A stretch of 64,000 nt of DNA from Lingula anatina (taxonomy: Eukaryota > Animalia > Brachiopoda): assembly GCA_051362555.1 (NCBI GenBank), contig CM120641.1:11222001-11286000 (forward strand). The letters are read 5' to 3'. Position numbers and translations under genes: made by a program. The notes under the pieces were generated by a model. It saw only the letters and a program-made list of their open reading frames with translations, searched no databases and was not told the origin of the DNA. This document shows, piece by piece, positions 2,454 to 61,228 of the stretch (its first letter is position 1; every line of letters starts with the position of its first letter).

Positions 2454-2454
<1 letters not shown>

Positions 2455-7953: not shown

Positions 7954-7989
<36 letters not shown>

Positions 7990-13794: not shown

Positions 13795-26528
<12,734 letters not shown>

Positions 26529-27923: not shown

Positions 27924-27981
27924 ATGTTATCCGAATGCATACTGGTTTCATCGAAAGGCGAGGTGTTGGTTGATAAACAAT
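27924..27981 (+). CDS. AP4M1: AP4M1 exon 1 (MLSECILVSSKGEVLVDKQ)
   Basis: Matches the mu-adaptin N-terminus; donor T|GTATCTTT. Confidence 0.85.
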
Positions 27982-35502: not shown

Positions 35503-35779
35503 CTGTAAGACTCTTTTAACTAAAAAGTTCCAGTGAACTGTCATGTTGTACTCCAATTGTAAAAGACTGATGGCAAGATAAGCTAAGCCTTGTCTTTCTT
35601 TGATACAAATGGTGGGAAATGCTAGAATTTGTATGGTGCTTCAATTACCTTACTACTTTTGTGATTTTAAAATGACAAAAATTGATTTTAATTCTTGCAT
35701 TGGTGTGTCTTATATAGAACAGAATTTCAATTTTATTTCTGTCAAGAAAATAATTACAAGTCAAACACTGTCCAATGCA

Positions 35780-35785
35780 AATAAA
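35780..35785 (+). terminator. Candidate AP4M1 poly(A) signal AATAAA
   Basis: First AATAAA after the stop (~280 nt downstream); lies in sequence homologous to the array unit. Confidence 0.5.
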
Positions 35786-37893: not shown

Positions 37894-38230
37894 AGTGATA
37901 ATAACTCTTCGTTTCGGCCAAAAAATGAATTTTCCTGGAGTAAACAACAATTTTCCCATACTTACCAATGGTTAATGAATCCATTTTTACATTCAAAGTT
38001 AGTCCCTGTTTTTTTTCTAAAAAGTTTGGTTTTTTGTTAAAATCTCTTAAGAGATTTTAGCAGAGTATAGCCATCAATGGAGGTCACGTGGTCTAAAGAC
38101 AAGCTCAGATATCAGAATAATAGCTATAACTGCCGTTTTTGTGGTAAAACAGAATATATTATATTTGTATGAGTTATTCACAATGTTTTTATTGTGAAAT
38201 ATAGATCTCATACGAAGAGTTATTATCCCT
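37894..38230. mobile_element. 337-bp Kolobok-type MITE inserted in one array unit
   Basis: TTAA target duplication (37890-37893 and 38231-38234); TIRs AGTGATAATAACTCTTCGT / ACGAAGAGTTATTATCCCT; empty site CATTAAGAAAC in other units. Confidence 0.9.
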
Positions 38231-41200
38231 TTAAGAAACACTATTCAATCCAAAAACAAAGCAAAGAATGTAATAACTGAATGAAGCCAAAATATCCAGC
38301 GGGTGGTGTCCCAACACCCACAGACCGTACTTTAGAACACATTGGCTAATATTCCTTTTACAAGCAACCATTTATTTTTAAATGAACTAAAGATAATAAC
38401 CTTTAAATATACATTTGTTTAACAACAGTGAAGCACGTTCACCTGCAAAGCAGTTGTCAACACTTCAAATACTTACATTGTTCCAACAACTCTATAATTT
38501 TTTTTCCACTTTCCAACATACCTTTTCCTCTAATCTAAATTGAATTTCATCTAGGCTGTTGCCTGAAAAAGAAAGTTGTCTACCAAAATCAATACAGGAG
38601 TTGAAGTTTATGCAAAATTTCCCTCCATGTGACATTTTGCTTGTCTTACCACATACCACAATATCCACGAAGATTCAAAGTGCCACTAATGCTAAAAAAG
38701 ACATTTCATTAAGAAACACTATTCAATCCAAAAACAAAGCAAAGAATGTAATAACTGAATGAAGCCAAAACATCCAGCGGGTGGTGTCCCAACACCCACA
38801 GACCGTGCTTTGCTCAAGTTTTCAATAATATTTCTTTACCATATCTTATCAAATAGACAATCTATTTAACAAATGCCATAATTAGTAAGGACATTATTTG
38901 TTATAAGACTCAAATTATAAGGAACACTGTCCAATGCAAATAAAGCAAAGAATGTTTAAACTGGATAAAGCCAAAATATCCAGTGGGTGGTGTACATTTG
39001 TTTAACAACAGTGAAGCACGTTCACCTGCAAAGCAGTTGTCAAGACTTCAAATACTTACATTGTTCCAACAACTCTGTAATTTTTTTTCCACTTTCCAAC
39101 ATACCTTTTCCTCTAATCTAAATTGAATTTCATCTAGGCTGTTGCCTGAAGAAGAAAGTTGTCTAACAAAATCAATACAGGAGTTGAAGTTTATGCAAAA
39201 TTTCCCTCCATGTGAGATTTTGCTTGTCTTACCACATACCACAATATCCACGGAGATTCAAAGTGCCACTAATGCTAAAAAAGACATTTCATTAAGAAAC
39301 ACTATTCAATCCAAAAACAAAGCAAAGAATGTAATAACTGAATGAAGCCAAAACATCCAGCGGGTGGTGTCCCAACACCCATAGACCGTGCTTTGCTCAA
39401 GTTTTCAATAATATTTCTTCACCATATCTTATGAAATAGACAATCTATTTAACAAATGCCATAATTAGTAAGGACATTACTTGTTATAAGACTCAAATTA
39501 TAAGGAACACTGTCCAATGCAAATAAAGCAAAGAATGTTTAAACTGGATAAAGCCAAAATATCCAGCGGGTGGTGTCCCAGCACCCACAGACAGTACTTT
39601 AGAACACATTGGATAATATTCCTTTTACAAGCAACCATTTATTTTTAAATGAACTAAAGATAATAACCTTTAAATATACATTTCTTTAACAACAGTGAAG
39701 CACGTTCACCTGCAAAGCAGTTGTCAACACTTCAAATACTTACATTGTTCCAACAACTCTGTAATTTTTTTCCACTTTCCAACATACCTTTTCCTCTAAT
39801 CTAAATTGAATTTCATCTAGGCTGTTGCCTGAAAAAGAAAGTTGTCTACCAAAATCAATACAGGAGTTGAAGTTTATACAAAATTTCCCTCCATGTGACT
39901 TTTTGCTTGTCTTACCACATACCACAATATCCACGGAGATTCAAAGTGCCATTAATGCTAAAAAAGACATTTCATTAAGAAACACTATTCAATCCAAAAA
40001 CAAAGCAAAGAATGTAATAACTGAATGAAGCCAAAACATCCAGCGGGTGGTGTCCCAACACCCACAGACCGTGCTTTGCTCAAGTTTTCAATAATATTTC
40101 TTCACCATATCTTATGAAATAGACAATCTATTTAACAAATGCCATAATAAGTAAGGACATTATTTGTTATAAGACTCAAATTATAAGGAACACTGTCCAA
40201 TGCAAATAAAGCAAAGAATGTTTAAACTGGATAAAGCCAAAATATCCAGCGGGTGGTGTCCCAGCACCCACAGACCGTACTTTAGAACACATTGCCTACT
40301 GTAATATTCCTTTTACAAGCAACCATTTATTTTTAAATGAACTAAAAATAATAACCTTTAAATATACATTTGTCTAACAACAGTGAAGCACGTTCACCTG
40401 CAAAGCAGTTGTCAACACTTCAAATACTTACATTGTTCCAACAACTCTGTAATTTTTTTCAACTTTCCAACATACCTTTTCCTCTAATCTAAATTGAATT
40501 TCATCTAGGCTGTTGCCTGAAAAAGAAAGTTGTCTACCAAAATCAATACAGGAGTTGAAGTTTATGCAAAATTTCCCTCCATGTGACGTTTTGCTTGTCT
40601 TACCACATACCACAATATCCACGGAGATTCAAAGTGCCATTAATGCTAAAAAAGACATTTCATTAAGAAACACTATTCAATCCAAAAACAAAGCAAAGAA
40701 TGTAATAACTGAATGAAGCCAAAACATCCAGCGGGTGGTGTCCTAACCCCCACAGACCGTGCTTTGCTCAAGTTTTCAATAATATTTCTTCATCATATCT
40801 TATAAAATAGACAATCTATTTAACAAATGCCATACTTAGTAAGGACATTATTTGTTATAAGACTCAAATTATAAGGAACACTGTCCAATGCAAATAAAGC
40901 AAAGAATGTTTAAACTGGATAAAGCCAAAATATCCAGCGGGTGGTGTCCCAGCACCCACAGACCGTACTTTAGAACACATTGGCTAATATTCCTTTTACA
41001 AGCAACCATTTATTTTTAAATGAACTAAAGATAATAACCTTTAAATATACATTTCTTTAACAACAGTGAAGCACGTTCACCTGCAAAGCAGTTGTCAACA
41101 CTTCAAATACTTACATTGTTCCAACAACTCTGTAATTTTTTTTCCACTTTCCAACATACCTTTTCCTCTAATCTAAATTGAATTTCATCTAGGCTGTTGC

Positions 41201-44200
41201 CTGAAAAAGAAAGTTTTCTACCAAAATCAATACAGGAGTTGAAGTTTATGCAAAATTTCCCTCCATGTGACGTTTTGCTTGTCTTACCACATACCACAAT
41301 ATCCACGGAGATTCAAAGTGCCACTAATGCTAAAATAGACATTTCATTAAGAAACACTATTCAATCCAAAAACAAAGCAAAGAATGTAATAACTGAATGA
41401 AGCCAAAACATCCAGCGGGTGGTGTCCCTCAAGTTTTCAATAATATTTCTTCACCATATCTTATAAAATAGACAATCTATTTAACAAATGCCATACTTAG
41501 TAAGGACATTATTTGTTATAAGACTCAAATTATAAGGAACACTGTCCAATGCAAATAAAGCAAAGAATGTTTAAACTGGATAAAGCCAAAATATCCAGCG
41601 GGTGGTGTCCCAGCACCCACAGACCGTACTTTAGAACACATTGGCTAATATTCCTTTTACAAGCAACTTTTTATTTTTAAATGAACTAAAGATAATAACC
41701 TTTAAATATACATTTCTTTAACAACAGTGAAGCACGTTCACCTGCAAAGCAGTTGTCAACACTTCAAATACTTACATTGTTCCAACAACTCTGTAATTTT
41801 TTTTCCACTTTCCAACATACCTTTTCCTCTAATCTAAATTGAATTTCATCTAGGCTGTTGCCTGAAAAAGAAAGTTGTCTACCAAAATCAATACATGAGT
41901 TGAAGTTTATGCAAAATTTCCCTCCATGTGAGATTTTGCTTGTCTTACCACATACCACAATATCCACGGAGATTCAAAGTGCCATTAATGCTAAAAAAGA
42001 CATTTCATTAAGAAACACTATTCAATCCAAAAAATATAATAACTGAATGAAGCCAAAACATCCAGCGGGTGGTGTCCCAACACCCACAGACCGTGCTTTG
42101 CTCAAGTTTTCAATAATATTTCTTCACCATATCTTATCAAATAGACAATCTATTTAACAAATGCCATAATTAGTAAGGACATTATTTGTTATAAGACTCA
42201 AATTATAAGGAACACTGTCCAATGCAAATAAAGCAAAGAATGTTTAAACTGGATAAAGCCAAAATATCCAGCGGGTGGTGTCCCAGCACCCACAGACCGT
42301 ACTTTAGAACACATTGGCTAATATTCCTTTTACAAGCAACCATTTATTTTTAAATGAACTAAAGATAATAACCTTTAAATATACATTTCTTTAACAACAG
42401 TGAAGCACGTTCACCTGCAAAGCAGTTGTCAACACTTCAAATACTTACATTGTTCCAACAACTCTGTAATTTTTTTCCACTTTCCAACATACCTTTTCCT
42501 CTAATCTAAATTGAATTTCATCTAGGCTGTTGCCTGAAAAAGAAAGTTGTCTACCAAAATCAATACAGGAGTTGAAGTTTATACAAAATTTCCCTCCATG
42601 TGACTTTTTGCTTGTCTTACCACATACCACAATATCCACGGAGATTCAAAGTGCCATTAATGCTAAAAAAGACATTTCATTAAGAAACACTATTCAATCC
42701 AAAAACAAAGCAAAGAATGTAATAACTGAATGAAGCCAAAACATCCAGCGGGTGGTGTCCTAACCCCCACAGACCGTGCTTTGCTCAAGTTTTCAATAAT
42801 ATTTCTTCATCATATCTTATAAAATAGACAATCTATTTAACAAATGCCATACTTAGTAAGGACATTATTTGTTATAAGACTCAAATTATAAGGAACACTG
42901 TCCAATGCAAATAAAGCAAAGAATGTTTAAACTGGATAAAGCCAAAATATCCAGCGGGTGGTGTCCCAGCACCCACAGACTGTACTTTACAACACTATGG
43001 CTAATATTCCTTTTACAAGCAACCATTTATTTTTAAATGAACTAAAGATAAAAACCTTTAAATATACATTTGTTTAACAACAGTGAAGCATGTTCACCTG
43101 CAAAGCAGTTGTCAACACTTCAAATACTTACATTGTTCCAACAACTCTGTAATTTTTTTCCACTTTCCAACATACCTTTTCCTCTAATCTAAATTGAATT
43201 TCATCTAGGCTGTTGCCTGAAAAAGAAAGTTTTCTACCAAAATCAATACAGGAGTTGAAGTTTATGCAAAATTTCCCTCCATGTGACGTTTTGCTTGTCT
43301 TACCACATACCACAATATCCACGGAGATTCAAAGTGCCACTAATGCTAAAATAGACATTTCATTAAGAAACACTATTCAATCCAAAAACAAAGCAAAGAA
43401 TGTAATAACTGAATGAAGCCAAAACATCCAGCGGGTGGTGTCCCTCAAGTTTTCAATAATATTTCTTCACCATATCTTATAAAATAGACAATCTATTTAA
43501 CAAATGCCATACTTAGTAAGGACATTATTTGTTATAAGACTCAAATTATAAGGAACACTGTCCAATGCAAATAAAGCAAAGAATGTTTAAACTGGATAAA
43601 GCCAAAATATCCAGCGGGTGGTGTCCCAGCACCCACAGACCGTACTTTAGAACACATTGGCTAATATTCCTTTTACAAGCAACCATTTATTTTTAAATGA
43701 ACTAAAGATAATAACCTTTAAATATACATTTCTTTAACAACAGTGAAGCACGTTCACCTGCAAAGCAGTTGTCAACACTTCAAATACTTACATTGTTCCA
43801 ACAACTCTGTAATTTTTTTCCACTTTCCAACATACCTTTTCCTCTAATCTAAATTGAATTTTTATCTAGGCTGTTGCCTGAAAAAGAAAGTTGTCCACCA
43901 AAATCAATACAGGAGTTGAAGTTTATGCAAAATTTCCCTCCATGTGACATTTTGCTTGTCTTACCACATACCACAATATCCACGGAGATTCAAAGTGCCA
44001 CTAATGCTAAAAAAGACATTTCATTAAGAAACACTATTCAATCCAAAAACAAAGCAAAGAATGTAATAACTGAATGAAGCCAAAATATCCAGCGGGTGGT
44101 GTCCCAGCACCCACAGACCGTACTTTAGAACACATTGGCTAATATTCCTTTTACAAACAACCATTTATTTTTAAATGAACTAAAGATAATAACCTTTAAA

Positions 44201-47200
44201 TATACATTTGTTTAACAACAGTGAAGCACGTTCACCTGCAAAGCAGTTGTCAACACTTCAAATACTTACATTGTTCCAACAACTCTATAATTTTTTTTCC
44301 ACTTTCCAACATACCTTTTCCTCTAATCTAAATTGAATTTCATCTAGGCTGTTGCCTGAAAAAGAAAGTTGTCTACCAAAATCAATACAGGAGTTGAAGT
44401 TTATGCAAAATTTCCCTCCATGTGACATTTTGCTTGTCTTACCACATACCACAATATCCACGAAGATTCAAAGTGCCACTAATGCTAAAAAAGACATTTC
44501 ATTAAGAAACACTATTCAATCCAAAAACAAAGCAAAGAATGTAATAACTGAATGAAGCCAAAACATCCAGCGGGTGGTGTCCCAACACCCACAGACCGTG
44601 CTTTGCTCAAGTTTTCAATAATATTTCTTTACCATATCTTATCAAATAGACAATCTATTTAACAAATGCCATAATTAGTAAGGACATTATTTGTTATAAG
44701 ACTCAAATTATAAGAAACACTGTCCAATGCAAATAAAGCAAAGAATGTTTAAACTGGATAAAGCCAAAATATCCAGCGGGTGGTGTACATTTGTTTAACA
44801 ACAGTTAAGCACATTCACCTGCAAAGCAGTTGTCAACACTTCAAATACTTACATTGTTCCAACAACTCTGTAATTTTTTTTCCACTTTCCAACATACCTT
44901 TTCCTCTAATCTAAATTGAATTTCATCTAGGCTGTTGCCTGAAGAAGAAAGTTGTCTAACAAAATCAATACAGGAGTTGAAGTTTATGCAAAATTTCCCT
45001 CCATGTGAGATTTTGCTTGTCTTACCACATACCACAATATCCACGGAGATTCAAAGTGCCACTAATGCTAAAAAAGACATTTCATTAAGAAACACTATTC
45101 AATCCAAAAACAAAGCAAAGAATGTAATAACTGAATGAAGCCAAAACATCCAGCGGGTGGTGTCCCAACACCCATAGACCGTGCTTTGCTCAAGTTTTCA
45201 ATAATATTTCTTCACCATATCTTATAAAATAGACAATCTATTTAACAAATGCCATAATTAGTAAGGACATTACTTGTTATAAGACTCAAATTATAAGGAA
45301 CACTGTCCAATGCAAATAAAGCAAAGAATGTTTAAACTGGATAAAGCCAAAATATCCAGCGGGTGGTGTCCCAGCACCCACAGACCGTACTTTAGAACAC
45401 ATTGGCTAATATTCCTTTTACAAGCAACCATTTATTTTTAAATGAACTAAAGATAATAACCTTTAAATATACATTTCTTTAACAACAGTGAAGCACGTTC
45501 ACCTGCAAAGCAGTTGTCAACACTTCAAATACTTACATTGTTCCAACAACTCTGTAATTTTTTTTCCACTTTCCAACATACCTTTTCCTCTAATCTAAAT
45601 TGAATTTTATCTAGGCTGTTGCCTGAAAAAGAAAGTTTTCTACCAAAATCAATACAGGAGTTGAAGTTTATGCAAAATTTCCCTCCATGTGACGTTTTGC
45701 TTGTCTTACCACATACCACAATATCCACGGAGATTCAAAGTGCCACTAATGCTAAAATAGACATTTCATTAAGAAACACTATTCAATCCAAAAACAAAGC
45801 AAAGAATGTAATAACTGAATGAAGCCAAAACAAATGCCATAATAAGTAAGGACATTATTTGTTATAAGACTCAAATTATAAGGAACACTGTCCAATGCAA
45901 ATAAAGAAAAGAATGTTTAAACTGGATAAAGCCAAAATATCCAGCGGGTGGTGTCCCAGCACCCACAGACCGTACTTTAGAACACATTGGCTAATATTCC
46001 TTTTACAAGCAACCATTTATTTTTAAATGAACTAAAGATAATAACCTTTAAATATACATTTCTTTAACAACAGTGAAGCACGTTCACCTGCAAAGCAGTT
46101 GTCAACACTTCAAATACTTACATTGTTCCAACAACTCTGTAATTTTTTTCCACTTTCCAACATACCTTTTCCTCTAATCTAAATTGAATTTCATCTAGGC
46201 TGTTGCCTGAAAAAGAAAGTTGTCTACCAAAATCAATACAGGAGTTGAAGTTTATACAAAATTTCCCTCCATGTGACTTTTTGCTTGTCTTACCACATAC
46301 CACAATATCCACGGAGATTCAAAGTGCCATTAATGCTAAAAAAGACATTTCATTAAGAAACACTATTCAATCCAAAAACAAAGCAAAGAATGTAATAACT
46401 GAATGAAGCCAAAACATCCAGCGGGTGGTGTCCTAACCCCCACAGACCGTGCTTTGCTCAAGTTTTCAATAATATTTCTTCATCATATCTTATAAAATAG
46501 ACAATCTATTTAACAAATGCCATACTTAGTAAGGACATTATTTGTTATAAGACTCAAATTATAAGGAACACTGTCCAATGCAAATAAAGCAAAGAATGTT
46601 TAAACTGGATAAAGCCAAAATATCCCGTGGGTGGTGTCCCAGCACCCACAGACCTAACTTTACAACACATTGGCTAATATTCCTTTTACAAGCAACCATT
46701 TATTTTTAAATGAACTAAAGATAATAACCTTTAAATATACATTTGTTTAACAACAGTGAAGCATGTTCACCTGCAAAGCAGTTGTCAACACTTCAAATAC
46801 TTACATTGTTCCAACAACTCTGTAATTTTTTTCCACTTTCCAACATACCTTTTCCTCTAATCTAAATTGAATTTCATCTAGGCTGTTGCCTGAAAAAGAA
46901 AGTTGTCTACCAAAATCAATACATGAGTTGAAGTTTATGCAAAATTTCCCTCCATGTGACATTTTGCTTGTCTTACCACATACCACAATATCCATGGAGA
47001 TTCAAAGTGCCACTAATGCTAAAAAAGACATTTCATTAAGAAACACTATTCAATCCAAAAAATATAATAACTGAATGAAGCCAAAACATCCAGCGGGTGG
47101 TGTCCCAACACCCACAGACCGTGCTTTGCTCAAGTTTTCAATAATATTTCTTCACCATATCTTATCAAATAGACAATCTATTTAACAAATGCCATAATTA

Positions 47201-50200
47201 GTAAGGACATTATTTGTTATAAGACTCAAATTATAAGGAACACTGTCCAATGCAAATAAAGCAAAGAATGTTTAAACTGGATAAAGCCAAAATATCCAGT
47301 GGGTGGTGTCCCAGCACCCACAGACCGTACTTTAGAACACATTGGCTAATATTCCTTTTACAAGCAACCATTTATTTTTAAATGAACTAAAGATAATAAC
47401 CTTTAAATATACATTTGTTTAACAACAGTGAAGCACGTTCACCTGCAAAGCAGTTGTCAACACTTCAAATACTTACATTGTTCCAACAACTCTGTAATTT
47501 TTTTCCACTTTCCAACATACCTTTTCCTCTAATCTAAATTGAATTTCATCTAGGCTGTTGCCTGAAAAAGAAAGTTGTCTACCAAAATCAATACAGGAGT
47601 TGAAGTTTATGCAAAATTTCCCTCCATGTGACATTTTGCTTGTCTTACCACATACCACAATATCCACGGAGATTCAAAGTGCCATTAATGCTAAAAAAGA
47701 CATTTCATTAAGAAACACTATTCAATCCAAAAACAAAGCAAAGAATGTAATAACTGAATGAAGCCAAAACATCCAGCGGGTGGTGTCCCAACGCCCACAG
47801 ACCGTGCTTTGCTCAAGTTTTCAATAATATTTCTTCACCATATCTTATGAAATAGACAATCTATTTAACAAATGCCATAATAAGTAAGGACATTATTTGT
47901 TATAAGACTCAAATTATAAGGAACACTGTCCAATGCAAATAAAGCAAAGAATGTTTAAACTGGATAAAGCCAAAATATCCAGTGGGTGGTGTCCCAGCAC
48001 CCACAGACCTAACTTTAGAACACATTGGCTAATATTCCTTTTACAAGCAACCATTTATTTTTAAATGAACTAAAAATAATAACCTTTAAATATACATTTG
48101 TCTAACAACAGTGAAGCACGTTCACCTGCAAAGCAGTTGTCAACACTTCAAATACTTACATTGTTCCAACAACTCTGTAATTTTTTTCCACTTTCCAACA
48201 TACCTTTTCCTCTAATCTAAATTGAATTTTATCTAGGCTGTTGCCTGAAAAAGAAAGTTGTCCACCAAAATCAATACAGGAGTTGAAGTTTATGCAAAAT
48301 TTCCCTCCATGTGACATTTTGCTTGTCTTACCACATACCACAATATCCACGGAGATTCAAAGTGCCATTAATGCTAAAAAAAGACATTTCATTAAGAAAC
48401 ACTGTTCAATCCAAAAACAAAGCAAAGAATGTAATAACTGAATGAAGCCAAATCATCCAGCGGGTGGTGTCCCAACACCCACAGACCGTGCTTTGCTCAA
48501 GTTTTCAATAATATTTCTTCACCATATCTTATCAAATAGACAATCTATTTAACAAATGCCATAATTAGTAAGGACATTATTTGTTATAAGACTCAAATTA
48601 TAAGGAACACTGTCCAATGCAAATAAAGCAAAGAATGTTTAAACTGGATAAAGCCAAAATATCCAGCGGGTGGTGTCCCAGCACCCACAGACAGTACTTT
48701 AGAACACATTGGATAATATTCCTTTTACAAGCAACCATTTATTTTTAAATGAACTAAAGATAATAACCTTTAAATATACATTTCTTTAACAACAGTGAAG
48801 CACGTTCACCTGCAAAGCAGTTGTCAACACTTCAAATACTTACATTATTCCAACAACTCTGTAATTTTTTTCCACTTTCCAACATAAATTTTCCTCTAAT
48901 CTAAATTGAATTTCATCTAGGCTGTTGCCTGAAAAAGAAAGTTGTCTACCAAAATCAATACAGGAGTTGAAGTTTATGCAAAATTTCCCTCCATGTGACG
49001 TTTTGCTTGTCTTACCACATACCACAATATCCACGGAGATTCAAAGTGCCATTAATGCTAAAAAAGACATTTCATTAAGAAACACTATTCAATCCAAAAA
49101 CAAAGCAAAGAATGTAATAACTGAATGAAGCCAAAACATCCAGCGGGTGGTGTCCCAACACCCACAGACCGTGCTTTGCTCAAGTTTTCAATAATATTTC
49201 TTCACCATATCTTATCAAATAGACAATCTATTTAACAAATGCCATAATTAGTAAGGACATTATTTGTTATAAGACTCAAATTATAAGGAACACTGTCCAA
49301 TGCAAATAAAGCAAAGAATGTTTAAACTGGATAAAGCCAAAATATCCAGCGGGTGGTGTCCCAGCACCCACAGACCGTACTTTAGAACACATTGGCTAAT
49401 ATTCCTTTTACAAGCAACCATTTATTTTTAAATGAACTAAAGATAATAACCTTTAAATATACATTTGTTTAACAACAGTGAAGCACGTTCACCTGCAAAG
49501 CAGTTGTCAACACTTCAAATACTTACATTGTTCCAACAACTCTGTAATTTTTTTCCACTTTCCAACATACCTTTTCCTCCAATCTAAATTGAATTTCATC
49601 TAGGCTGTTGCCTGAAAAACAAAGTTGTCTACCAAAATCAATACAGGAGTTGAAGTTTATGCAAAATTTCCCTCCATGTGAGATTTTGCTTGTCTTACCA
49701 CATACCACAATATCCATGGAGATTTAAAGTGCCATTAATGCTAAAAAAAAACATTTCATTAAGAAACACTATTCAATCCAAAAACAAAGCAAAGAATGTA
49801 ATAACTGAATGAAGCCAAAACATCCAACGGGTGGTGTCCCAACACCCACAGACCGTGCTTTGCTCAAGTTTTCAATAATATTTCTTCACCATATCTTATC
49901 AAATAGACAATCTATTTAACAAATGCCATAATTAGTAGGGACATTATTTGTTATAAGACTCAAATTATAAGGAACACTGTCCAATGCAAATAAAGCAAAG
50001 AATGTTTAAACTGGATAAAGCCAAAATATCCAGCGGGTGGTGTCCCAGCACCCACAGACCGTACTTTAGAACACATTGGCTAATATTCCTTTTACAAGCA
50101 ACCATTTATTTTTAAATGAACTAAAGATAATAACCTTTAAATATACATTTGTTTAACAACAGTGAAGCACGTTCACCTGCAAAGCAGTTGTCAACACTTC

Positions 50201-53200
50201 AAATACTTACATTGTTCCAACAACTCTGTAATTTTTTTTCCACTTTCCAACATACCTTTTCCTCTAATCTAAATTGAATTTCATCTAGGCTGTTGCCTGA
50301 AAAAGAAAGTTGTCTACCAAAATCAATACAGGAGTTGAAGATTATGCAAAATTTCCCTCCATGTGAGATTTTGCTTGTCTTACCACATACCACAATATCC
50401 ACGGAGATTCAAAGTGCCACAAATGCTAAAAAAGACATTTCATTAAGAAACACTATTCAATCCAAAAACAAAGCAAAGAATGTAATAACTGAATGAAGCC
50501 AAAACATCCAGCGGGTGGTGTCCCAACACCCACAGACCGTGCTTTGCTCACGTTTTCAATAATATTTCTTCACCATATCTTATCAAATAGACAATCTATT
50601 TAACAAATGCCATACTTAGTAAGGACATTATTTGTTATAAGACTCAAATTATAAGAAACACTGTCCAATGCAAATAAAGCAAAGAATGTTTAAACTGGAT
50701 AAAGCCAAAATATCCAGCGGGTGGTGTCCCAGCACCCACAGACCGTACTTTAGAACACATTGGCTAATATTCCTTTTACAAACAACCATTTATTTTGAAA
50801 TGAACTAAAGATAATAACCTTTAAATATACATTTGTTTAACAACAGTTAAGCATGTTCACCTGCAAAGCAGTTGTCAACACTTCAAATACTTACATTGTT
50901 CCAACAACTCTGTAATTTTTTTCCACTTTCCAACATACCTTTTCCTCTAATCTAAATTGAATTTTATCTAGGCTGTTGCCTGAAAAAGAAAGTTGTCCAC
51001 CAAAATCAATACAGGAGTTGAAGTTTATGCAAAATTTCCCTCCATGTGATGTTTTGCTTGTCTTACCACATACCACAATATCCACGGAGATTCAAAGTGC
51101 CATTAATGCTAAAAAAGACATTTCATTAAGAAACACTATTCAATCCAAAAACAAAGCAAAGAATGTAATAACTGAATGAAGCCAAAACATCCAGCGGGTG
51201 GTGTCCCAACACCCACAGACCGTGCTTTGCTCAAGTTTTCAATAATATTTCTTCACCATATCTTATAAAATAGACAATCTATTTAACAAATGCCATAATT
51301 AGTAAGGACATTATTTGTTATAAGACTCAAATTATAAGGAACACTGTCCAATGCAAATAAAGCAAAGAATGTTTAAACTGGATAAAGCCAAAATATCCAG
51401 CGGGTGGTGTCCCAGCACCCACAGACCGTACTTTAGAACACATTGGCTAATATTCCTTTTACAAGCAACTATTTATTTTTAAATGAACTAAAGATAATAA
51501 CCTTTAAATATACATTTCTTTAACAACAGTGAAGCACGTTCACCTGCAAAGCAGTTGTCAACACTTCAAATACTTACATTGTTCCAACAACTCTGTAATT
51601 TTTTTTCCACTTTCCAACATACCTTTTCCTCTAATCTAAATTGAATTTCATCTAGGCTGTTGCCTGAAAAAGAAAGTTGTCTACCAAAATCAATACAGGA
51701 GTTGAAGTTTATGCAAAATTTCCCTCCATGTGACATTTTGCTTGTCTTACCACATACCACAATATCCACGGAGATTCAAAGTGCCATTAATGCTAAAAAA
51801 GACATTTCATTAAGAAACACTATTCAATCCAAAAACAAAGCAAAGAATGTAATAACTGAATGAAGCCAAAACATCCAGCGGGTGGTGTCCAAACACCCAC
51901 AGACCGTGCTTTGCTCACATTTTCAATAATATTTCTTCACCATATCTTATCAAATAGACAATATATTTAACAAATGCCATAATTAGTAAGGACATTATTT
52001 GTTATAAGACTCAAATTATAAGGAATACTGTCCAATGCAAATAAAGCAAAGAATGTTTAAACTGGATAAAGCCAAAATATCCAGTGGGTGGTGTCCCAGC
52101 ACCCACAGACCGTACTTTAGAACACATTGGCTAATATTCCTTTTACAAGCAACCATTTATTTTTAAATGAACTAAAGATAATAACCTTTAATATATTTGT
52201 TTAACAACAGTGAAGCACGTTCACCTGCAAAGCAGTTGTCAACACTTCAAATACTTACATTGTTCCAACAACTCTGTAATTTTTTTCCACTTTCCAACAT
52301 ACCTTTTCCTCTAATCTAAATTGAATTTCATCTAGGCTGTTGCCTGAAAAAGAAAGTTGTCTACCAAAATCAATACAGGAGTTGAAGTTTATGCAAAATT
52401 TCCCTCCATGTGACGTTTTGCTTGTCTTACCACATACCACAATATCCACAGAGATTCAAAGTGCCGTTAATGCTAAAAAAGACATTTCATTAAGAAACAC
52501 TATTCAATCCAAAAACAAAGCAAAGAATGTAATAACTGAATGAAGCCAAAACATCCAGCGGGTGGTGTCCCAACACCCACAGACCGTGCTTTGCTCAAGT
52601 TTTCAATAATATTTCTTCACCATATCTTATCAAATAGACAATCTATTTAACAAATGCCATAATTAGTAAGGACATTATTTGTTATAAGACTCAAATTATA
52701 AGGAACACTGTCCAATGCAAATAAAGCAAAGAATGTTTAAACTGGATAAAGCCAAAATATCCAGTGGGTGGTGTCCCAGCACCCACAGACCTTACTTTAG
52801 AACACATTGGCTAATATTCCTTTTACAAGCAACCATTTATTTTTAAATGTACTAAAGATAATAACCTTTAAATATACATTTGTTTAACAACAGTGAAGCA
52901 CGTTCACCTGCAAAGCAGTTGTCAACACTTCAAATACTTACATTGTTCCAACAACTCTGTAATTTTTTTTCCACTTTCCAACATACCTTTTCCTCTAATC
53001 TAAATTGAATTTCATCTAGGCTGTTGCCTGAAAAAGAAAGTTGTCTACCAAAATCAATACAGGAGTTGAAGTTTATGCAAAATTTCCCTCCATGTGAGAT
53101 TTTGCTTGTCTAACCACATACCACAATATCCACGGAGATTCAAAGTGCCACAAATGCTAAAAAAGACATTTCATTAAGAAACACTATTCAATCCAAAAAC

Positions 53201-54562
53201 AAAGCAAAGAATGTAATAACTGAATGAAGCCAAAACATCCAGCGGGTGGTGTCCCAACACCCACAGACCGTGCTTTGCTCACGTTTTCAATAATATTTCT
53301 TCACCATATCTTATCAAATAGACAATATATTTAACAAATGCCATAATTAGTAAGGACATTATTTGTTATAAGACTCAAATTATAAGGAATACTGTCCAAT
53401 GCAAATAAAGCAAAGAATGTTTAAACTGGATAAAGCCAAAATATCCAGTGGGTGGTGTCCCAGCACCCACAGACCGTACTTTAGAACACATTGGCTAATA
53501 TTCCTTTTACAAGCAACCATTTATTTTTAAATGAACTAAAGATAATAACCTTTAATATATTTGTTTAACAACAGTGAAGCACGTTCACCTGCAAAGCAGT
53601 TGTCAACACTTCAAATACTTACATTGTTCCAACAACTCTGTAATTTTTTTCCACTTTCCAACATACCTTTTCCTCTAATCTAAATTGAATTTCATCTAGG
53701 CTGTTGCCTGAAAAAGAAAGTTGTCTACCAAAATCAATACAGGAGTTGAAGTTTATGCAAAATTTCCCTCCATGTGACGTTTTGCTTGTCTTACCACATA
53801 CCACAATATCCATGGAGATTCAAAGTGCCGTTAATGCTAAAAAAGACATTTCATTAAGAAACACTATTCAATCCAAAAACAAAGCAAAGAATGTAATAAC
53901 TGAATGAAGCCAAAACATCCAGCGGGTGGTGTCCCAACACCCACAGACCGTGCTTTGCTCAAGTTTTCAATAATATTTCTTCACCATATCTTATCAAATA
54001 GACAATCTATTTAACAAATGCCATAATTAGTAAGGACATTATTTGTTATAAGACTCAAATTATAAGGAACACTGTCCAATGCAAATAAAGCAAAGAATGT
54101 TTAAACTGGATAAAGCCAAAATATCCAGCGGGTGGTGTCCCAGCACCCACAGACCGTACTTTAGAACACATTGGCTAATATTCCTTTTACAAGCAACCAT
54201 TTATTTTTAAATGAACTAAAGATAATAACCTTTAAATATACATTTCTTTAACAACAGTGAAGCACGTTCACCTGCAAAGCAGTTGTCAACACTTCAAATA
54301 CTTACATTGTTCCAACAACTCTGTAATTTTTTTCCACTTTCCAACATACCTTTTCCTCTAATCTAAATTGAATTTCATCTAGGCTGTTGCCTGAAAAAGA
54401 AAGTTGTCTACCAAAATCAATACAGGAGTTGAAGTTTATGCAAAATTTCCCTCCATGTGACGTTTTGCTTGTCTTACCACATACCACAATATCCACGGAG
54501 ATTCAAAGTGCCATTAATGCTAAAAAAGACATTTCATTAAGAAACACTATTCAATCCAAAAA

Positions 54563-54640
54563 CAAAGCAAAGAATGTAATAACTGAATGAAGCCAAAACA
54601 TCCAGCGGGTGGTGTCCCAACACCCACAGACCGTGCTTTG
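54563..54640 (-). ncRNA. Candidate structured RNA motif A (representative copy; one per array unit)
   Basis: 78-nt three-helix junction with compensatory differences relative to motif A'; family not recognised. Confidence 0.3.
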
Positions 54641-54768
54641 CTCAAGTTTTCAATAATATTTCTTCACCATATCTTATCAAATAGACAATCTATTTAACAA
54701 ATGCCATAATTAGTAAGGACATTATTTGTTATAAGACTCAAATTATAAGGAACACTGTCCAATGCAAA

Positions 54769-54846
54769 TAAAGCAAAGAATGTTTAAACTGGATAAAGCC
54801 AAAATATCCAGTGGGTGGTGTCCCAGCACCCACAGACCGTACTTTA
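54769..54846 (-). ncRNA. Candidate structured RNA motif A' (representative copy; one per array unit)
   Basis: Paralog of motif A, same 78-nt length and same fold. Confidence 0.3.
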
Positions 54847-57800
54847 GAACACATTGGCTAATATTCCTTTTACAAGCAACCATTTATTTTTAAATGAACT
54901 AAAGATAATAACCTTTAAACATACATTTGTTTAACAACAGTGAAGCACGTTCACCTGCAAAGCATTTGTCAACACTTCAAATACTTACATTGTTCCAACA
55001 ACTCTGTAATTTTTTTCCACTTTCCAACATACCTTTTCCTCTAATCTAAATTGAATTTCATCTAGGCTGTTGCCTGAAAAAGAAAGTTGTCTACCAAAAT
55101 CAATACAGGAGTTGAAGTTTATGCAAAATTTCCCTCCATGTGACATTTTGCTTGTCTTACCACATACCACAATATCCACGGAGATTCAAAGTGCCATTAA
55201 TGCTAAAAAAGACATTTCATTAAGAAACACTATTCAATCCAAAAACAAAGCAAAGAATGTAATAACTGAATGAAGCCAAAACATCCAGCGGGTGGTGTCC
55301 CAACACCCACAGACCGTGCTTTGCTCAAGTTTTCAATAATATTTCTTCACCATATCTTATCAAATAGACAATCTATTTAACAAATGCCATAATTAGTAGG
55401 GACATTATTTGTTATAAGACTCAAATTATAAGGAACACTGTCCAATGCAAATAAAGCAAAGAATGTTTAAACTGGATAAAGCCAAAATATCCAGTGGGTG
55501 GTGTCCCAGCACCCACAGACCTTACTTTAGAACACATTGGCTAATATTCCTTTTACAAGCAACCATTTATTTTTAAATGTACTAAAGATAATAACCTTTA
55601 AATATACATTTGTTTAACAACAGTGAAGCACGTTCACCTGCAAAGCAGTTGTCAACACTTCAAATACCTACATTGTTCCAACAACTCTGTAATTTTTTTC
55701 CACTTTCCAACATACCTTTTCCTCTAATCTAAATTGAATTTCATCTAGGCTGTTGCCTGAAAAAGAAAGTTGTCTACCAAAATCAATACAGGAGTTGAAG
55801 TTTATGCAAAATTTCCCTCCATGTGACATTTTGCTTGTCTTACCACATACCACAATATCCACGGAGATTCAAAGTGCCACTAATGCTAAAAAAAGACATT
55901 TCATTAAGAAACACTATTCAATCCAAAAACAAAGCAAAGAATGTAATAACTGAATGAAGCCAAAACATCCAGCGGGTGGTGTCCCAACACCCACAGACCG
56001 TGCTTTGCTCAAGTTTTCAATAATATTTCTTCACCATATCTTATCAAATAGACAATCTATTTAACAAATGCCATAATAAGTAAGGACATTATTTGTTATA
56101 AGACTCAAATTATAAGGAACACTGTCCAATGCAAATAAAGCAAAGAATGTTTAAACTGGATAAAGCCAAAATATCCAGTGGGTGGTGTCCCAGCACCCAC
56201 AGACCTAACTTTAGAACACATTGGCTAATATTCCTTTTACAAGCAACCATTTATTTTTAAATGAACTAAAGATAATAACCTTTAAATATACATTTGTTTA
56301 ACAACAGTGAAGCACGTTCACCTGTAAAGCAGTTGTCAACACTTCAAATACTTACATTGTTCCAACAACTCTGTAATTTTTTTTCCACTTTCCAACATAC
56401 CTTTTCCTCTAATCTAAATTGAATTTCATCTAGGCTGTTGCCTGAAAAAGAAAGTTGTCTACCAAAATCAATACAGGAGTTGAAGTTTATGCAAAATTTC
56501 CCTCCATGTGAGATTTTGCTTGTCTAACCACATACCACAATATCCACGGAGATTCAAAGTGCCACAAATGCTAAAAAAGACATTTCATTAAGAAACACTA
56601 TTCAATCCAAAAACAAAGCAAAGAATGTAATAACTGAATGAAGCCAAAACATCCAGCGGGTGGTGTCCCAACACCCACAGACCGTGCTTTGCTCACGTTT
56701 TCAATAATATTTCTTCACCATATCTTATCAAATAGACAATCTATTTAACAAATGCCATACTTAGTAAGGACATTATTTGTTATAAGACTCAAATTATTAG
56801 AAACACTGTCCAATGCAAATAAAGCAAAGAATGTTTAAACTGGATAAAGCCAAAATATCCAGTGGGTGGTGTCCCAGCACCCACAGACCTTACTTTAGAA
56901 CACATTGGCTAATATTCCTTTTACAAGCAACCATTTATTTTTAAATGTACTAAAAATAATAATCTTTAAATATACATTTGTTTAACAACAGTGAAGCACG
57001 TTCACCTGCAAAGCAGTTGTCAACACTTCAAATACTTACATTGTTCCAACAACTCTGTAATTTTTTTCCACTTTCCAACATACCTTTTCCTCTAATCTAA
57101 ATTGAATTTCATCTAGGCTGTTGCCTGAAAAAGAAAGTTGTCTACCAAAATCAATACAGGAGTTGAAGTTTATGCAAAATTTCCCTCCATGTGAGATTTT
57201 GCTTGTCTTACCACATACCACAATATCCACGGAGATTCAAAGTGCCACTAATGCTAAAAAAGACATTTCATTAAGAAACACTATTCAATCCAAAAACAAA
57301 GCAAAGAATGTAATAACTGAATGAAGCCAAAACATCCAGCGGGTGGTGTCCCAACACCCACAGACCGTGCTTTGCTCAAGTTTTCAATAATATTTCTTCA
57401 CCATATCTTATCAAATAGACAATCTATTTAACAAATGCCATAATTAGTAAGGACATTATTTGTTATAAGACTCAAATTATAAGGAACACTGTCCAATGCA
57501 AATAAAGCAAAGAATGTTTAAACTGGATAAAGCCAAAATATCCAGTGGGTGGTGTCCCAGCACCCACAGACCTTACTTTAGAACACATTGGCTAATATTC
57601 CTTTTACAAGCAACCATTTATTTTTAAATGAACTAAAGATAATAACCTTTAAATATACATTTGTTTAACAACAGTGAAGCACGTTCACCTGCAAAGCAGT
57701 TGTCAACACTTCAAATACTTACATTGTTCCAACAACTCTGTAATTTTTTTTCCACTTTCAAACATACCTTTTCCTCTAATCTAAATTGAATTTCATCTAG

Positions 57801-58977
57801 GCTGTTGCCTGAAAAAGAAAGTTGTCTACCAAAATCAATACAGGAGTTGAAGATTATGCAAAATTTCCCTCCATGTGAGATTTTGCTTGTCTTACCACAT
57901 ACCACAATATCCACGGAGATTCAAAGTGCCACAAATGCTAAAAAAGACATTTCATTAAGAAACACTATTCAATCCAAAAACAAAGCAAAGAATGTAATAA
58001 CTGAATGAAGCCAAAACATCCAGCGGGTGGTGTCCCAACACCCACAGACCGTGCTTTGCTCAAGTTTTCAATAATATTTCTTCACCATATCTTATCAAAT
58101 AGACAATCTATTTAACAAATGCCATAATTAGTAAGGACATTATTTGTTATAAGACTCAAATTATAAGGAACACTGTCCAATGCAAATAAAGCAAAGAATG
58201 TTTAAACTGGATAAAGCCAAAATATCCAGTGGGTGGTGTCCCAGCACCCACAGACCTTACTTTACAACACATTGGCTAATATTCCTTTTACAAGCAACCA
58301 TTTATTTTTAAATGAACTAAAGATAATAACCTTTAAATATACATTTGTTTAACAACAGTGAAGCACGTTCACCTGCAAAGCAGTTGTCAACACTTCAAAT
58401 ACTTACATTGTTCCAACAACTCTGTAATTTTTTTTCCACTTTCCAACATACCTTTTCCTCTAATCTAAATTGAAATTCATCTAGGCTGTTGCCTGAAAAA
58501 AAAAGTTGTCTACCAAAATCAATACAGGAGTTGAAGTTTATGCAAAATTTCCCTCCATGTGAGATTTTGCTTGTTTTACCACATACCACAATATCCACGG
58601 AGATTCAAAGTGCCACTAATGCTAAAAAAGACATTTCATTAAGAAACACTATTCAATCCAAAATCAAAGCAAAGAATGTAATAACTGAATGAAGTCAAAA
58701 CATCCAGTGGGTGGTGTCCCAACACCCACAGACCGTGCTTTAGCCAAGTTTTGAATAATATTAAAAACTGCACTTTAGAATACATTGTCTAATATTCCTT
58801 TTACAAGCAAATATACTGTTCCAAATGAACCGAAGATAAACTTTTGTTAACTTTAATCGAATTTTACATTATTAGCTTGACCGATTTTCCCCGCTTGGTT
58901 TTTTGTTTGTCTGTTTTGTGCTAGTGAAGAAAAGGATAGACTTAAACCACTATACCAAGTGTACAGGTAGAAATTGT

Positions 58978-59150
58978 CTTTTTACTATTTTTGCCTACCT
59001 GTTTCTTTTGAAAATCCGCGGTTCATCAGTGTGACAACACTTTTCTGCTTGTGAGAATGCGGTTGCCACTGTCCATGGAAACGTAAGCAATGATACACAA
59101 TAAGCACGTCATATGTCAACGTCACGTCGTGACGTATAAAATTGCGCCAA
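58978..59150 (-). promoter_or_regulatory. Promoter-like module + candidate first exon, copy 1 (RFX X-box-like, CRE-like palindrome)
   Basis: GTTGCCA..CTGTCCATGGAAAC 59062-59082; ACGTCACG-T-CGTGACGT 59119-59135; minus donor AG|GTAGGC at 58998. Confidence 0.5.
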
Positions 59151-59506
59151 TGCCCATGGTTTTCTTTTTCAGACTGCATTTTAGTTGGACTACAAAAAAA
59201 ACTGTCTGGGTAATGGAACCCTGAAAGAAATTCCCATTGCGTTAAATGAGCTGAAAGGCACAATAAACCGACTAGTATTTTTTTCTGCGTACGCTCTGTC
59301 TAGGAATTGTATTTCAAAAATATCTCTCGTATATGAATTGAATACCAGTATCGTGTCTTCTGTCTTGTAGCTACTCTCCTTTTTATACTAATACGCAAAA
59401 TCCATACTTAAGCGATATTATTGGATAACTTGCATATACCTTTATACGTAGGAATGGTGCTGACAGATAGGGCATGCTTCGTAGTCAGGTTTCACTTTTA
59501 CCTGCG

Positions 59507-59789
59507 CAGTGGCGGATTTAGAGGGGGGGGGGGGGTCGGGGGGGGGGGCTGACCCCTGCCCTTCGATTTCTGGTCCCCTCTTGAAATTAGAAATTTGACC
59601 AGCTGAATCATAGTTCTAAGCCGTACCAAATGACACCGTTCTCCCTGTAAAATACATTATTATTATTTATTTATTTATTTTTTTTTTTTTTTTTTGGGGG
59701 GGGGGGGCGAACCCCACGCCAAGTGGGAGGGGGGGCTTCGCCTCCGCGTCCCCCCACTCCCCCTTCAAATAAACTTGGACCCGCTCCTG
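59507..59789 (-). mobile_element. MITE, CAG(G/T)GGCGGAT-terminal family, copy 3 (inverted)
   Basis: CAGTGGCGGATTTAG ... GGACCCGCTCCTG; flanked by 6-bp duplication CCTGCG. Confidence 0.85.
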
Positions 59790-59972
59790 CCTGCGGAAGA
59801 ACCAGGAAGCACATAATATTAATTGCGTGTAGATAGCAATCGGTGCGGGGAATAACAACGTAACCGCTTTAGATAAAATCACCAAAAATGGTGTAGTTAT
59901 TGACAAAGGTATGAAGACCAATCGGGTGCAATTTGTTGATAGCAACTTTTGAACCGATGTGATTTACATTGT

Positions 59973-60273
59973 ATTTAGAAAGGTCCAGTGAAAATTGGTT
60001 TGAACGAATGTGATAGAATCTAAACGGAGAGATTTTCAAAAGGTCGGTGGCTACCCTTAGTAGTACTCATGCGCGGCTCCTACTATCCACTGAATTTTTT
60101 CTATACGAGCCCGGGAAATAATTTAGAAAGGTCCAGTGAAAATTGGTTTGAACGAATGTAACAAGTGATAGAATCTAAACGGAGAGATTTTCAAAAGGTC
60201 GGTGGCTACCCTTAGTAGTACTCATGCGCGGCTCCTACTATCCACTGAATTTTTTCTATACGAGCCCGGGAAA
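59973..60273. repeat. Recent tandem duplication, two ~148/154-bp copies
   Basis: ATTTAGAAAGGTCCAGTG...GAGCCCGGGAAAT at 59973 and 60121, apparently identical apart from one short indel. Confidence 0.92.
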
Positions 60274-61046
60274 TCAATCAATCAATAAATCGAGAATAAC
60301 ATTCTCACCCCAAAAACCGCTGGTATGACGTCATCAGCAAAATACCCATACTTTATCTGAAGTTGCATTAAGTCCATGAACATTAAAAGTATATAGGGAA
60401 AAGCTAAATAAATGGGTCATGTTTTTGAAGTTATTGGGAAATTTATTTTTGTAGCAGAGAAGAGCGGTAAATGTCAAAGTCACACGAGGTGTTAGTTGTT
60501 TGGTTAATTTCACAACCGAAATGTAATTTTTGATTACGAGGATAAAACTGTAAACTGGACTTCATAAACTTTTCAAATACGACGTTATAGAGACTGCATT
60601 TCTATACCAATTTAGTTTTGTTAGATGTGAACTAGCATTTGAAGAGATTACTTGTATGAGGTAATATTGTATATTTGGACGACAAAGCATGTATAATGGG
60701 AGATTCTTCGAAAGATAATGAAAAGAAAATAAGTGAACGGGTGATCAGTGTGAAGAGAAAATTTAAATACCACTGCGTTTGTATGATTTTGAATTTATGT
60801 TTCTATTAATCGATGACATCTAATTGTTTCTTACATTATTTCAACACGCAACTTCATTTTACAGGCAATGTACAAAACAATTAAATGCATTCTAAATATA
60901 TATGCTTTGTATTTTTGTACAGGTCTTCCCACTTACATTTGGGGACTTGGGATTGTGCAGTCAAGTAAAGGCTGAAAATAAATGAAAGGCGGGAACGATA
61001 GCCAACCAATACAGATTGCATCCTATATTACGCACTAAACCATACA

Positions 61047-61228
61047 ACTTTTTTTTATTACTTTCCCTACCTTTTTTCTTTTGAAAAATTTCTGCGGTTC
61101 ATCAGTCGCAATGTGATATCGCTTTGATGGTAGTGAGGATGCGGTTGCCACTGTCCATGGCAACGTAGACAATACACAATATACACGTCATATGTCAACG
61201 TCACGTCGTGACGCATAAAAGGCGCCAT
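61047..61228 (-). promoter_or_regulatory. Promoter-like module + candidate first exon, copy 2 (paralog of 58978-59150)
   Basis: GCGGTTGCCACTGTCCATGGCAAC 61141-61164; CACGTCATATGTCAACGTCACGTCGTGACG shared; minus donor AG|GTAGGG at 61070. Confidence 0.5.

What the first reader, a model, noticed from the sequence alone, without database searches (positions are those of the whole stretch)
54563..54846. Covarying 78-nt three-helix RNA motif present twice in each full unit of the 23-kb array (~60+ copies)
Seen in sequence: each unit has two paralogous 78-nt segments. Minus-strand A = CAAAGCA-CGGUCU-GUGGGUG-UUGGGACAC-CACCCG-CUGGAUG-UUUUGGCUU-CAUUCAG-UUAUUACAUUCUU-UGCUUUG. A' = UAAAGUA-CGGUCU-GUGGGUG-CUGGGACAC-CACCC(G/A)-CUGGAUA-UUUUGGCUU-UAUCCAG-UUUAAACAUUCUU-UGCUUUA. 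Both fold as a 7-bp closing stem plus two directly abutting hairpins with 9-nt loops. By hand I count 10 A/A' differences, 6 of them in stems, and all 6 keep pairing. Two pairs are fully compensatory (C-G<->U-A at the end of the closing stem; G-C<->A-U closing hairpin 2) and two are G-C<->G.U. The common among-copy polymorphism swaps U.G<->U-A. These non-Watson-Crick positions are G.U on the minus strand but A.C on the plus strand, which points to a minus-strand RNA. I see no C/D boxes, tRNA arms, or hammerhead/twister/HDV cores; a conserved ACAUUC follows hairpin 2. Inference: an unrecognised structured RNA (or a structured ssDNA terminus of a rolling-circle element) amplified in tandem.
Basis: partly seen in the sequence, partly recalled or inferred. 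Interest (0 to 1): 0.85.

Follow-up and report, generated by a model that had tools for sequence, protein, structure and literature searches.

The report
Brachiopod array of branched microRNA-like hairpins
A 23-kb repeat in the lamp shell Lingula carries over 60 copies of two related fold-back sequences, predicted to form long RNA stems topped by a two-hairpin head, that likely act as microRNA precursors with unusually large loops, although no small RNA from them has been seen.

Summary
The 78-nt motif is real: 66 cores of two paralogs (A, A') in a 683-bp-unit array in Lingula anatina, and all six stem differences keep pairing. But it is only the top of a larger element. Each copy is predicted to fold, on the minus strand, into a 123-126-nt hairpin with a stem of about 30 bp plus a short loose extension (z -6.4 and -4.2), with a third compensatory pair at its base. 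Stem length, an apical UGU/GUG, a GUG at the mGHG position and a nearly invariant 3' arm fit a Microprocessor substrate whose 54-55-nt branched loop is about twice the longest curated Lingula loop I saw (27 nt). Against: no CNNC (present in 18 of 20 curated Lingula hairpins checked), the loop is better kept than the arms, and five RNA-seq runs gave only trace reads, from both strands. Best reading (about 50%): an amplified, C19MC/miR-430-like cluster of long-loop microRNA precursors. Rivals: fold-back satellite DNA, or a non-microRNA structured RNA. No Rfam match, no outgroup homolog. The scan noted two other candidate Lingula microRNA arrays on other DNA; neither came up by sequence.

The parts
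35752..58830 (-). Tandem array, unit about 683 bp, two paralogous hairpins per full unit (spacing 206/478)
   Evidence: 30 near-full units aligned
54539..54664 (-). Hairpin A, 126 nt: predicted 31-position symmetric stem plus branched head
   Evidence: (-45.1 kcal/mol, z -6.40, 0 of 200 shuffles)
54747..54869 (-). Hairpin A', 123 nt: predicted 10+8+7-bp stem plus branched head
   Evidence: (54748-54869 folded: -43.8 kcal/mol, z -4.19, 0 of 200 shuffles)
54563..54640 (-).
54769..54846 (-).
54583..54626 (-). Two abutting hairpins with 9-nt loops in A (same in A' at 54789-54832); lie in the predicted Dicer-excised region
   Evidence: hairpin 2 probability 0.10 in A, 0.99 in A'
54629..54651 (-). 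Predicted 5p (passenger) arm of A; A' equivalent 54834-54856
   Evidence: inferred from the 13-nt basal rule; coordinates; 12 of 46 sites variable over both paralogs
54550..54573 (-). Predicted 3p (guide) arm of A; A' equivalent 54758-54779; shared predicted seed CUUUGCU if the arm starts at motif position 68
   Evidence: inferred; 3 of 46 sites variable, all singletons; first 10 nt identical in 59 of 62 copies
54545..54547 (-). GUG at -5..-3 of the predicted 3' cut (mGHG position) in A; A' 54753-54755
   Evidence: 58 of 62 copies; position from PMC9976908; the middle base is paired, so not a strict mismatched GHG
54478..54519 (-). Exon-like segment 1 (35 or 42 nt, two donor-like sites); splicing not shown
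   Evidence: sequence; acceptor-like site kept in a diverged single-copy paralog contig (table 5c, read by eye); not enriched over shuffles
54306..54390 (-). Exon-like segment 2 (41 or 85 nt, two donor-like sites); splicing not shown
   Evidence: GTAAGT kept within one base of the same spacing in a diverged contig end (table 7, read by eye)
59001..60000 (-). CpG-rich stretch just upstream of the array with a TATA-like hexamer at 59387: candidate promoter, untested
   Evidence: 40 CpG per kb vs 5-11 inside the array; no RNA reads at 58890-59400 in 3 runs

Best explanation
The array is likely an amplified cluster of two related microRNA precursors with unusually large, branched loops. A minus-strand host transcript would carry the two hairpins of each unit, probably in an intron between short non-coding exons. 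Drosha would cut about 13 nt above the base of each stem and release a precursor of about 100 nt (102 for A, 99 for A'). Dicer would remove the 54-55-nt two-hairpin head, and the nearly invariant 3' arms would give two microRNAs that likely share one seed, at high dose from the many copies, probably in a stage or tissue not covered by the RNA runs examined. Shown: copies, paralogy, variation pattern, motif positions. Predicted: the fold. Inferred and untested: transcription, splicing, cutting, the mature RNA and its seed.
For: Long stem in both paralogs, minus strand favoured; 58 of 66 copies keep 20 or more long-range pairs, and the 8 others are deletions or chimeras. 8 of 8 changed nucleotides in the 30 shared pairs keep pairing, 3 of them as double changes. 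Arms pair best with their own partner: -26.0 and -24.9 vs -7.9 and -16.1 kcal/mol crossed; two natural A'/A chimeras lose the fold (z -1.6, -1.5). 9 distinct G.U pairs vs 1 A.C, which symmetric decay of a DNA inverted repeat would not give. About 30 stem positions plus a loose 3-8-bp extension is near the ~35-bp optimum (PMC7174388). In the register set by the 13/11 rule, UGU/GUG falls at +21..+26 in 57 of 62 copies and GHG at -5..-3 in 58 of 62 (windows from PMC9976908); joint chance from composition 0.003-0.005 for one fixed register, counted once because the copies share descent. 3p arm 3 of 46 variable sites vs 5p 12 of 46 (Fisher p 0.02, copies not independent). Branched Dicer-excised regions with an unpaired patch at the dicing site are documented in invertebrate microRNAs (PMC12553114).
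Against: No CNNC in any of 62 copies, whereas 18 of 20 distinct hairpins in the first 30 of 68 Lingula rows of the MirGeneDB table have one (counted by eye). Basal UG is one base outside the window in A (26 of 32) and absent in A'. GHG at exactly -5..-3 is in only 1 of those 20 Lingula hairpins and is not mismatched here, so it is weak support. The loop is better kept between A and A' (48 of 55) than the first half of the 5p arm (3 of 10), unusual for microRNAs; exchange between paralogs (chimeras at 38334 and 44127) may explain it. The upper stem of A has five mismatches and both duplexes end loosely at the dicing site. RNA: 4, 0 and 2 reads on a collapsed unit in three runs and depth 4 or less in two more, no splice joints, and the two calibrated stranded runs point to opposite strands. 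One plus-strand 126-nt window also reached z -5.0 (30 shuffles). Splice-like sites are not enriched (p 0.12 and 0.46). No outgroup homolog.
Confidence: 0.5

Rival explanations
1. Fold-back DNA: a small element with imperfect terminal inverted repeats (MITE-like or Helentron-derived) that duplicated once, diverged, and was then amplified as satellite DNA with no RNA function.
For: Only trace RNA, from both strands. Units about 98% identical. A/A' homology ends near the base of the stem, as for an inserted element; one DNA contig end leaves at that boundary (36051).
Against: G.U vs A.C 9:1; no target-site duplication; only 1% of 124 DNA contigs run on into unlike sequence, so not widely dispersed; fewer variable sites in the motifs than outside (11 of 156 vs 70 of 527, p 0.035); 5p/3p asymmetry; internal hairpin 2 covaries.
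Confidence: 0.2
2. A structured RNA that is not a microRNA: the two-hairpin head is the working part (protein-binding platform, or a stable ~80-100-nt RNA trimmed or cropped from the intron) and the long stem only presents or protects it.
For: The head is among the best-kept parts between paralogs (48 of 55) and hairpin 2 has a double and a single compensating change; no CNNC; no Rfam family.
Against: Gene conversion can explain the kept head (chimeras); among copies the 3p arm varies no more than the head (3 of 46 vs 10 of 109 sites); stem length and motif spacing fit Microprocessor geometry.
Confidence: 0.18
3. H/ACA small nucleolar RNAs: an ANANNA hexamer upstream and ACA at motif positions 64-66 would bound a 3' guide hairpin.
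For: Both boxes can be read in A and A'; trimmed A folds into a two-hairpin shape at -33.6 kcal/mol; an alternative stem (positions 1-7 with 41-47) also has a double change; a weak SNORA27 match, E 6.6.
Against: Trimmed A' does not form the same hairpin; the alternative stem has probability 0.00 with flanks; the 33 nt beyond ACA+3 are conserved and covary; the Rfam score is 13.7 vs cut-off 64.
Confidence: 0.06
4. Self-cleaving ribozyme or Sm-class (spliced-leader-like) RNA repeated in tandem.
For: Three-way junction; AUUUUGG in loop 2 of A'; donor-like sites in the unit.
Against: No hammerhead core, no full Sm consensus; no Rfam match; no partly laid mRNA reads of the kind a spliced leader would give.
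Confidence: 0.04

Closest known systems
Long-loop ('giant') invertebrate microRNA precursors, e.g. Daphnia let-7 and mir-375, Drosophila mir-989 (PMC12553114; abstract, Results parts 1 and 3 of 3, passages, supplementary table rows)
   Same: Normal basal stem and duplex with a long, structured, sometimes branched Dicer-excised region and an unpaired patch at the dicing site.
   Different: Those are lengthened members of conserved families with small-RNA support; this has no known family, sits in 60+ tandem copies, and has no read support. The paper's main text does not mention Lingula, brachiopods or tandem arrays.
Primate C19MC cluster (PMC2691840; passages)
   Same: Tandem units of 400-700 nt holding hairpins between repeated non-coding exons; here 683 bp with exon-like segments.
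   Different: C19MC has 46 diverged ordinary-loop hairpins, one per unit, with Alus and proven splicing; here two hairpins per unit, about 98% identical units, branched loops, splicing not shown.
Capitella teleta early-embryo tandem microRNA cluster, likened to zebrafish miR-430 (PMC8915122; passages)
   Same: Tandemly duplicated microRNAs in a lophotrochozoan.
   Different: Backed by small-RNA reads and stage data; long branched loops are not described in the passages seen.
Lingula Mir-9 (row in supplement 2 of PMC12553114)
   Same: Nearest seed among the 68 Lingula rows seen: one base off the predicted seed.
   Different: Mir-9 is a 5p product with a 15-nt loop and another duplex; not a member, likely chance.

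Membership tests
Canonical microRNA (Drosha/Dicer) | Imperfect stem of about 35 bp with single-stranded flanks | tested here: met
   31 stem positions in A, 27 paired or opposed plus a 3x2 loop in A', each with a loose 3-8-bp extension; predicted fold only
Canonical microRNA (Drosha/Dicer) | Mature and star reads of 20-26 nt with fixed 5' ends and 2-nt overhangs (criterion recalled) | not testable with these tools
   No small-RNA run was listed; only poly(A), oligo-dT and unspecified RNA-seq
Canonical microRNA (Drosha/Dicer) | Apical UGU/GUG at +21..+26 (enhancing motif) | tested here: met
   57 of 62 copies
Canonical microRNA (Drosha/Dicer) | mGHG at -5..-3 (enhancing motif) | tested here: inconclusive
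   GHG in 58 of 62, but the middle base is paired; score table not available
Canonical microRNA (Drosha/Dicer) | CNNC at -16..-21 (enhancing motif, common in Lingula) | tested here: not met
   0 of 62; 18 of 20 curated Lingula hairpins have it
Canonical microRNA (Drosha/Dicer) | Basal UG at -14..-12 (enhancing motif) | tested here: not met
   3 of 62; at -15 in 26 of 32 A copies
Curated Lingula microRNA families (MirGeneDB) | Hairpin or seed identity | tested here: not met
   Core absent from the stored table; none of 68 Lingula rows matches. The file is cut and shows no Lingula-only families, so an annotation there is not excluded
C19MC-type host gene | Spliced repeated non-coding exons flanking the hairpins | tested here: inconclusive
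   No joints in 5 RNA runs with near-zero coverage; sites not enriched; two sites kept in diverged contigs
H/ACA snoRNA | Hairpin-H box-hairpin-ACA fold shared by paralogs | tested here: not met
   Possible in A, not in A'
C/D snoRNA | Box C (RUGAUGA) and box D (CUGA) | tested here: not met
Hammerhead ribozyme | CUGANGA and GAAA cores around a three-way junction | tested here: not met
   no Rfam match
MITE / fold-back DNA transposon | Target-site duplication | tested here: not met
   12-nt flanks of A and A' show none
MITE / fold-back DNA transposon | Many dispersed insertions | tested here: inconclusive
   15 of 124 contigs partly laid, 1% run on unlike; a few other loci exist; no whole genome held
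tRNA or Pol III small RNA | Cloverleaf, B box, no internal T-run terminator | tested here: not met

The most novel reading that the evidence does not exclude
A brachiopod has evolved a C19MC-like host gene that mass-produces a new microRNA family from dozens to hundreds of precursors whose 55-nt branched head is itself under selection, as a protein-docking switch that gates processing to one developmental stage or as a second RNA product. Tandem amplification and giant branched loops are each known; my searches found no paper joining the two or describing this array.
Probability: 0.2. Interest if true: 0.75.

Novelty: new variant of a known kind. Interest (0 to 1): 0.5.

Why it matters
If true, it adds a high-dose microRNA cluster in a little-studied phylum that standard pipelines would miss twice: repeat masking hides it and the 55-nt branched loop breaks ordinary hairpin filters. 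Two paralogs, natural chimeras and deletion copies give ready-made controls for asking how Microprocessor and Dicer handle branched heads and what a conserved loop does. If false, it is a satellite with fold-back repeats.

Tried and rejected
Rfam at gathering and E-value thresholds: nothing real. tRNA scan: none. Whole genome: not held. No RNA holder listed by the run index; this blank is not evidence. Pattern scans: core pattern 0 hits in metagenome and viral contigs; a 3'-arm pattern gave 30 metagenome loci, none a homolog under model R1 (best E 0.67). Model R1 on the flanks: chance hits only; the best, 15232-15310, folds differently and not beyond chance. Runs of organisms B and C gave no outgroup: one 151-nt contig with 5 differences and one 39-nt match outside the motif. 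A single long hairpin inside the 78-mer (positions 1-47) was rejected: probability 0.00, precursor too short. I first guessed the array lay in an AKT intron; an AP-4-mu-like gene on the plus strand lies between, and its reads stop near 35640, before the array. A 40-codon open frame can be made from exon-like segments 1 and 2 (read by eye), but an extra A in 12 of 30 units breaks it and many site combinations were possible; rejected as chance. Earlier scan notes by sequence, near place and relatives: nothing related. Supplements of other papers and bioRxiv supplements were not read and may list Lingula-only microRNAs.

Full report
Setting. A kinase exon in the window is 99% identical to Lingula anatina AKT, and the next-best hit is 86%, so the window is from this brachiopod. 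AKT runs on the minus strand from about 26.5 kb down to 13.8 kb. An adaptor-complex medium-subunit gene (Pfam PF00928; AP-4 mu by my recall) ends on the plus strand, with RNA reads stopping near 35640. The array runs from 35752 to 58830 with units of about 683 bp, about 98% identical. CpG is low across the array (5-11 per kb) and high just upstream on the minus strand (40 per kb at 59001-60000). No whole genome is held.

The observation. They differ at 10 positions; six are in stems and all keep pairing. There are 66 cores: 32 classed A (two lack the 5' half, two have an 11-nt deletion in the 3' arm), 30 A', two A'/A chimeras and two A' lacking the 5' half. Rfam and ARAGORN find nothing.

With 25 nt of flank, both paralogs extend the 7-bp closing stem into a stem of about 30 bp. 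The full elements are 54539-54664 (A) and 54747-54869 (A'). They fold at -45.1 and -43.8 kcal/mol on the minus strand (z -6.40 and -4.19; 0 of 200 shuffles) against z -1.15 and -2.72 on the plus strand. These windows were chosen after seeing the fold. In an unbiased slide over 75 windows, the two minus-strand peaks (z -4.7, -5.1) fall on the elements, but one plus-strand window over A' also reached -5.0 (30 shuffles each). The basal helix adds a third double change, A-U in A and G-C in A' (8 of the 66 copies were aligned). All 8 changed nucleotides in the 30 shared pairs keep pairing: about 2% by chance, 0.05% with three double changes, with the caveats that there are only two lineages and the structure came from them. 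The middle of the stem has diverged (3 of 10 identical on the 5' side), yet each 5' arm pairs best with its own 3' arm, and the two natural chimeras lose the fold. In ungapped stem registers A has 6 G.U and 0 A.C, A' 6 and 1; three G.U are shared, so 9 to 1 (about 0.01 one-sided, by hand). That favours selection on one strand.

MicroRNA geometry. [quoted passage not shown] Applying the 13/11 rule gives precursors of 102 and 99 nt with 55- and 54-nt excised heads. In that register, UGU/GUG lies at +21..+26 in 57 of 62 copies and GHG at -5..-3 in 58 of 62; CNNC is absent in all 62; UG is off by one in A and absent in A'. Among copies the predicted 3' arm has 3 variable sites of 46, all singletons, plus the two deletions; the 5' arm has 12 of 46. 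The first 10 nt of the 3' arm are the same in both paralogs, so one seed is predicted, though a one-base shift of the Dicer cut would change it. PMC12553114 (abstract, Results parts 1 and 3 of 3, passages) shows that invertebrate microRNAs can have long, branched excised regions and need an unpaired patch near the dicing site; both paralogs have such a patch. Its supplementary MirGeneDB table (cut when stored, apparently sorted by loop length) has 68 Lingula rows, longest loop 27 nt, none matching. It shows no Lingula-only families, so an existing annotation is not excluded. The same rows count against me: 18 of 20 distinct hairpins in the first 30 rows have CNNC, and only 1 of 20 has GHG at exactly -5..-3 (counted by eye). 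The loop is also better kept between paralogs (48 of 55) than is usual; patchwork copies at 38334 and 44127 show exchange between A and A' there, but a functional head is equally possible.

Unit layout and other loci. The minus strand of the 400-nt spacer has acceptor- and donor-like sites that would define two short exons, as in C19MC (PMC2691840, passages). A crude score finds them not enriched over shuffles. One DNA run holds a 1152-nt contig at single-copy depth (86.6 vs 76.4 for the flanking gene) with a diverged A-like hairpin next to the spacer; by eye it keeps the acceptor-like site while the next 12 nt differ, and another diverged contig end keeps the GTAAGT hexamer. So a diverged paralog of the whole unit exists elsewhere. 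Summed contig depth on the spacer is mostly 7,600-11,200 (range 1,900-11,200), which hints at more units than the 34 or so here, but the tool warns that this is no copy number. Only 1% of 124 contigs run on into unlike sequence, so the hairpin is not a widely dispersed element.

Expression. No small-RNA run was listed. Five RNA-seq runs, each read to 6-26%, gave 4, 0 and 2 reads on one collapsed unit and depth 4 or less in the other two, with no splice joints. The flanking plus-strand gene calibrates one study as stranded: by it, the reads of one run are minus-strand RNA and those of its sister run plus-strand. This is background level. It does not test a 22-nt or 100-nt RNA, but it gives no sign of a spliced host transcript in these samples, whose tissue and stage are unknown.

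Rivals. Fold-back satellite DNA (0.2) fits the silence and homogeneity but not the G.U bias, the arm asymmetry or the missing target-site duplication. A non-microRNA RNA whose head is the working part (0.18) fits the kept loop and missing CNNC. H/ACA (0.06): boxes can be read, but only A folds that way. Ribozyme or Sm RNA (0.04): no cores. No outgroup homolog was found.

Novelty. Paper searches (listings seen, full passages only for the five papers cited) found no description of this array. Earlier scan notes report two other candidate microRNA arrays in this genome; they prompted the microRNA test and the Capitella paper (PMC8915122, passages), are unchecked, and were not matched by sequence. 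Verdict: a real structured element, larger than reported, that most likely works like an amplified long-loop microRNA cluster. It is not filed as a proven microRNA because the defining read evidence could not be tested. New variant of a known kind; interest 0.5.

Noticed in passing
window 58978-59149 and 61048-61227: Two 80%-identical copies of a ~175-nt element with clustered TGACG words, a TATA-like hexamer on the plus strand (59135) and a kept donor-like site on the minus strand; could be a promoter or first exon for the array's host transcript. No RNA reads on the proximal copy in 3 runs.
   Followed up: partly
window 58770-58830 and 35752-35789: The array starts with a 5' arm of A' and ends with a 3' arm of A', as if it expanded inside one ancestral hairpin.
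   Followed up: partly
window 38233-38356 and 44026-44149: Natural A'/A chimeric hairpins; the first switches type several times inside the head, a sign of gene conversion.
   Followed up: yes
window 35730-35775: A plus-strand AATAAA lies inside the last 3'-arm remnant of the array, near the end of the convergent adaptor-subunit gene; not tested as its poly(A) signal.
   Followed up: no
window 35293-35642: One RNA study differs from the window at many sites in this last exon and UTR and leaves the sequence after 35612-35642: strong haplotype divergence or a cryptic species.
   Followed up: no
window 1445-1907: GC-rich 64-bp tandem repeat (6-7 copies) with open frames in all three plus-strand phases.
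   Followed up: no
window 9987-10282, 28556-28825, 59496-59798: Three diverged copies of a dispersed repeat with C/G runs, probably a short transposon.
   Followed up: no
window 31547-31751: 77-bp inverted repeat at 87% identity with a ~55-bp spacer.
   Followed up: no
window 59973-60274: Two-copy 155-bp tandem duplication at 95% identity.
   Followed up: no
window 27001-28000: CpG-rich kilobase between AKT (minus) and the adaptor-subunit gene (plus): likely shared bidirectional promoter.
   Followed up: no
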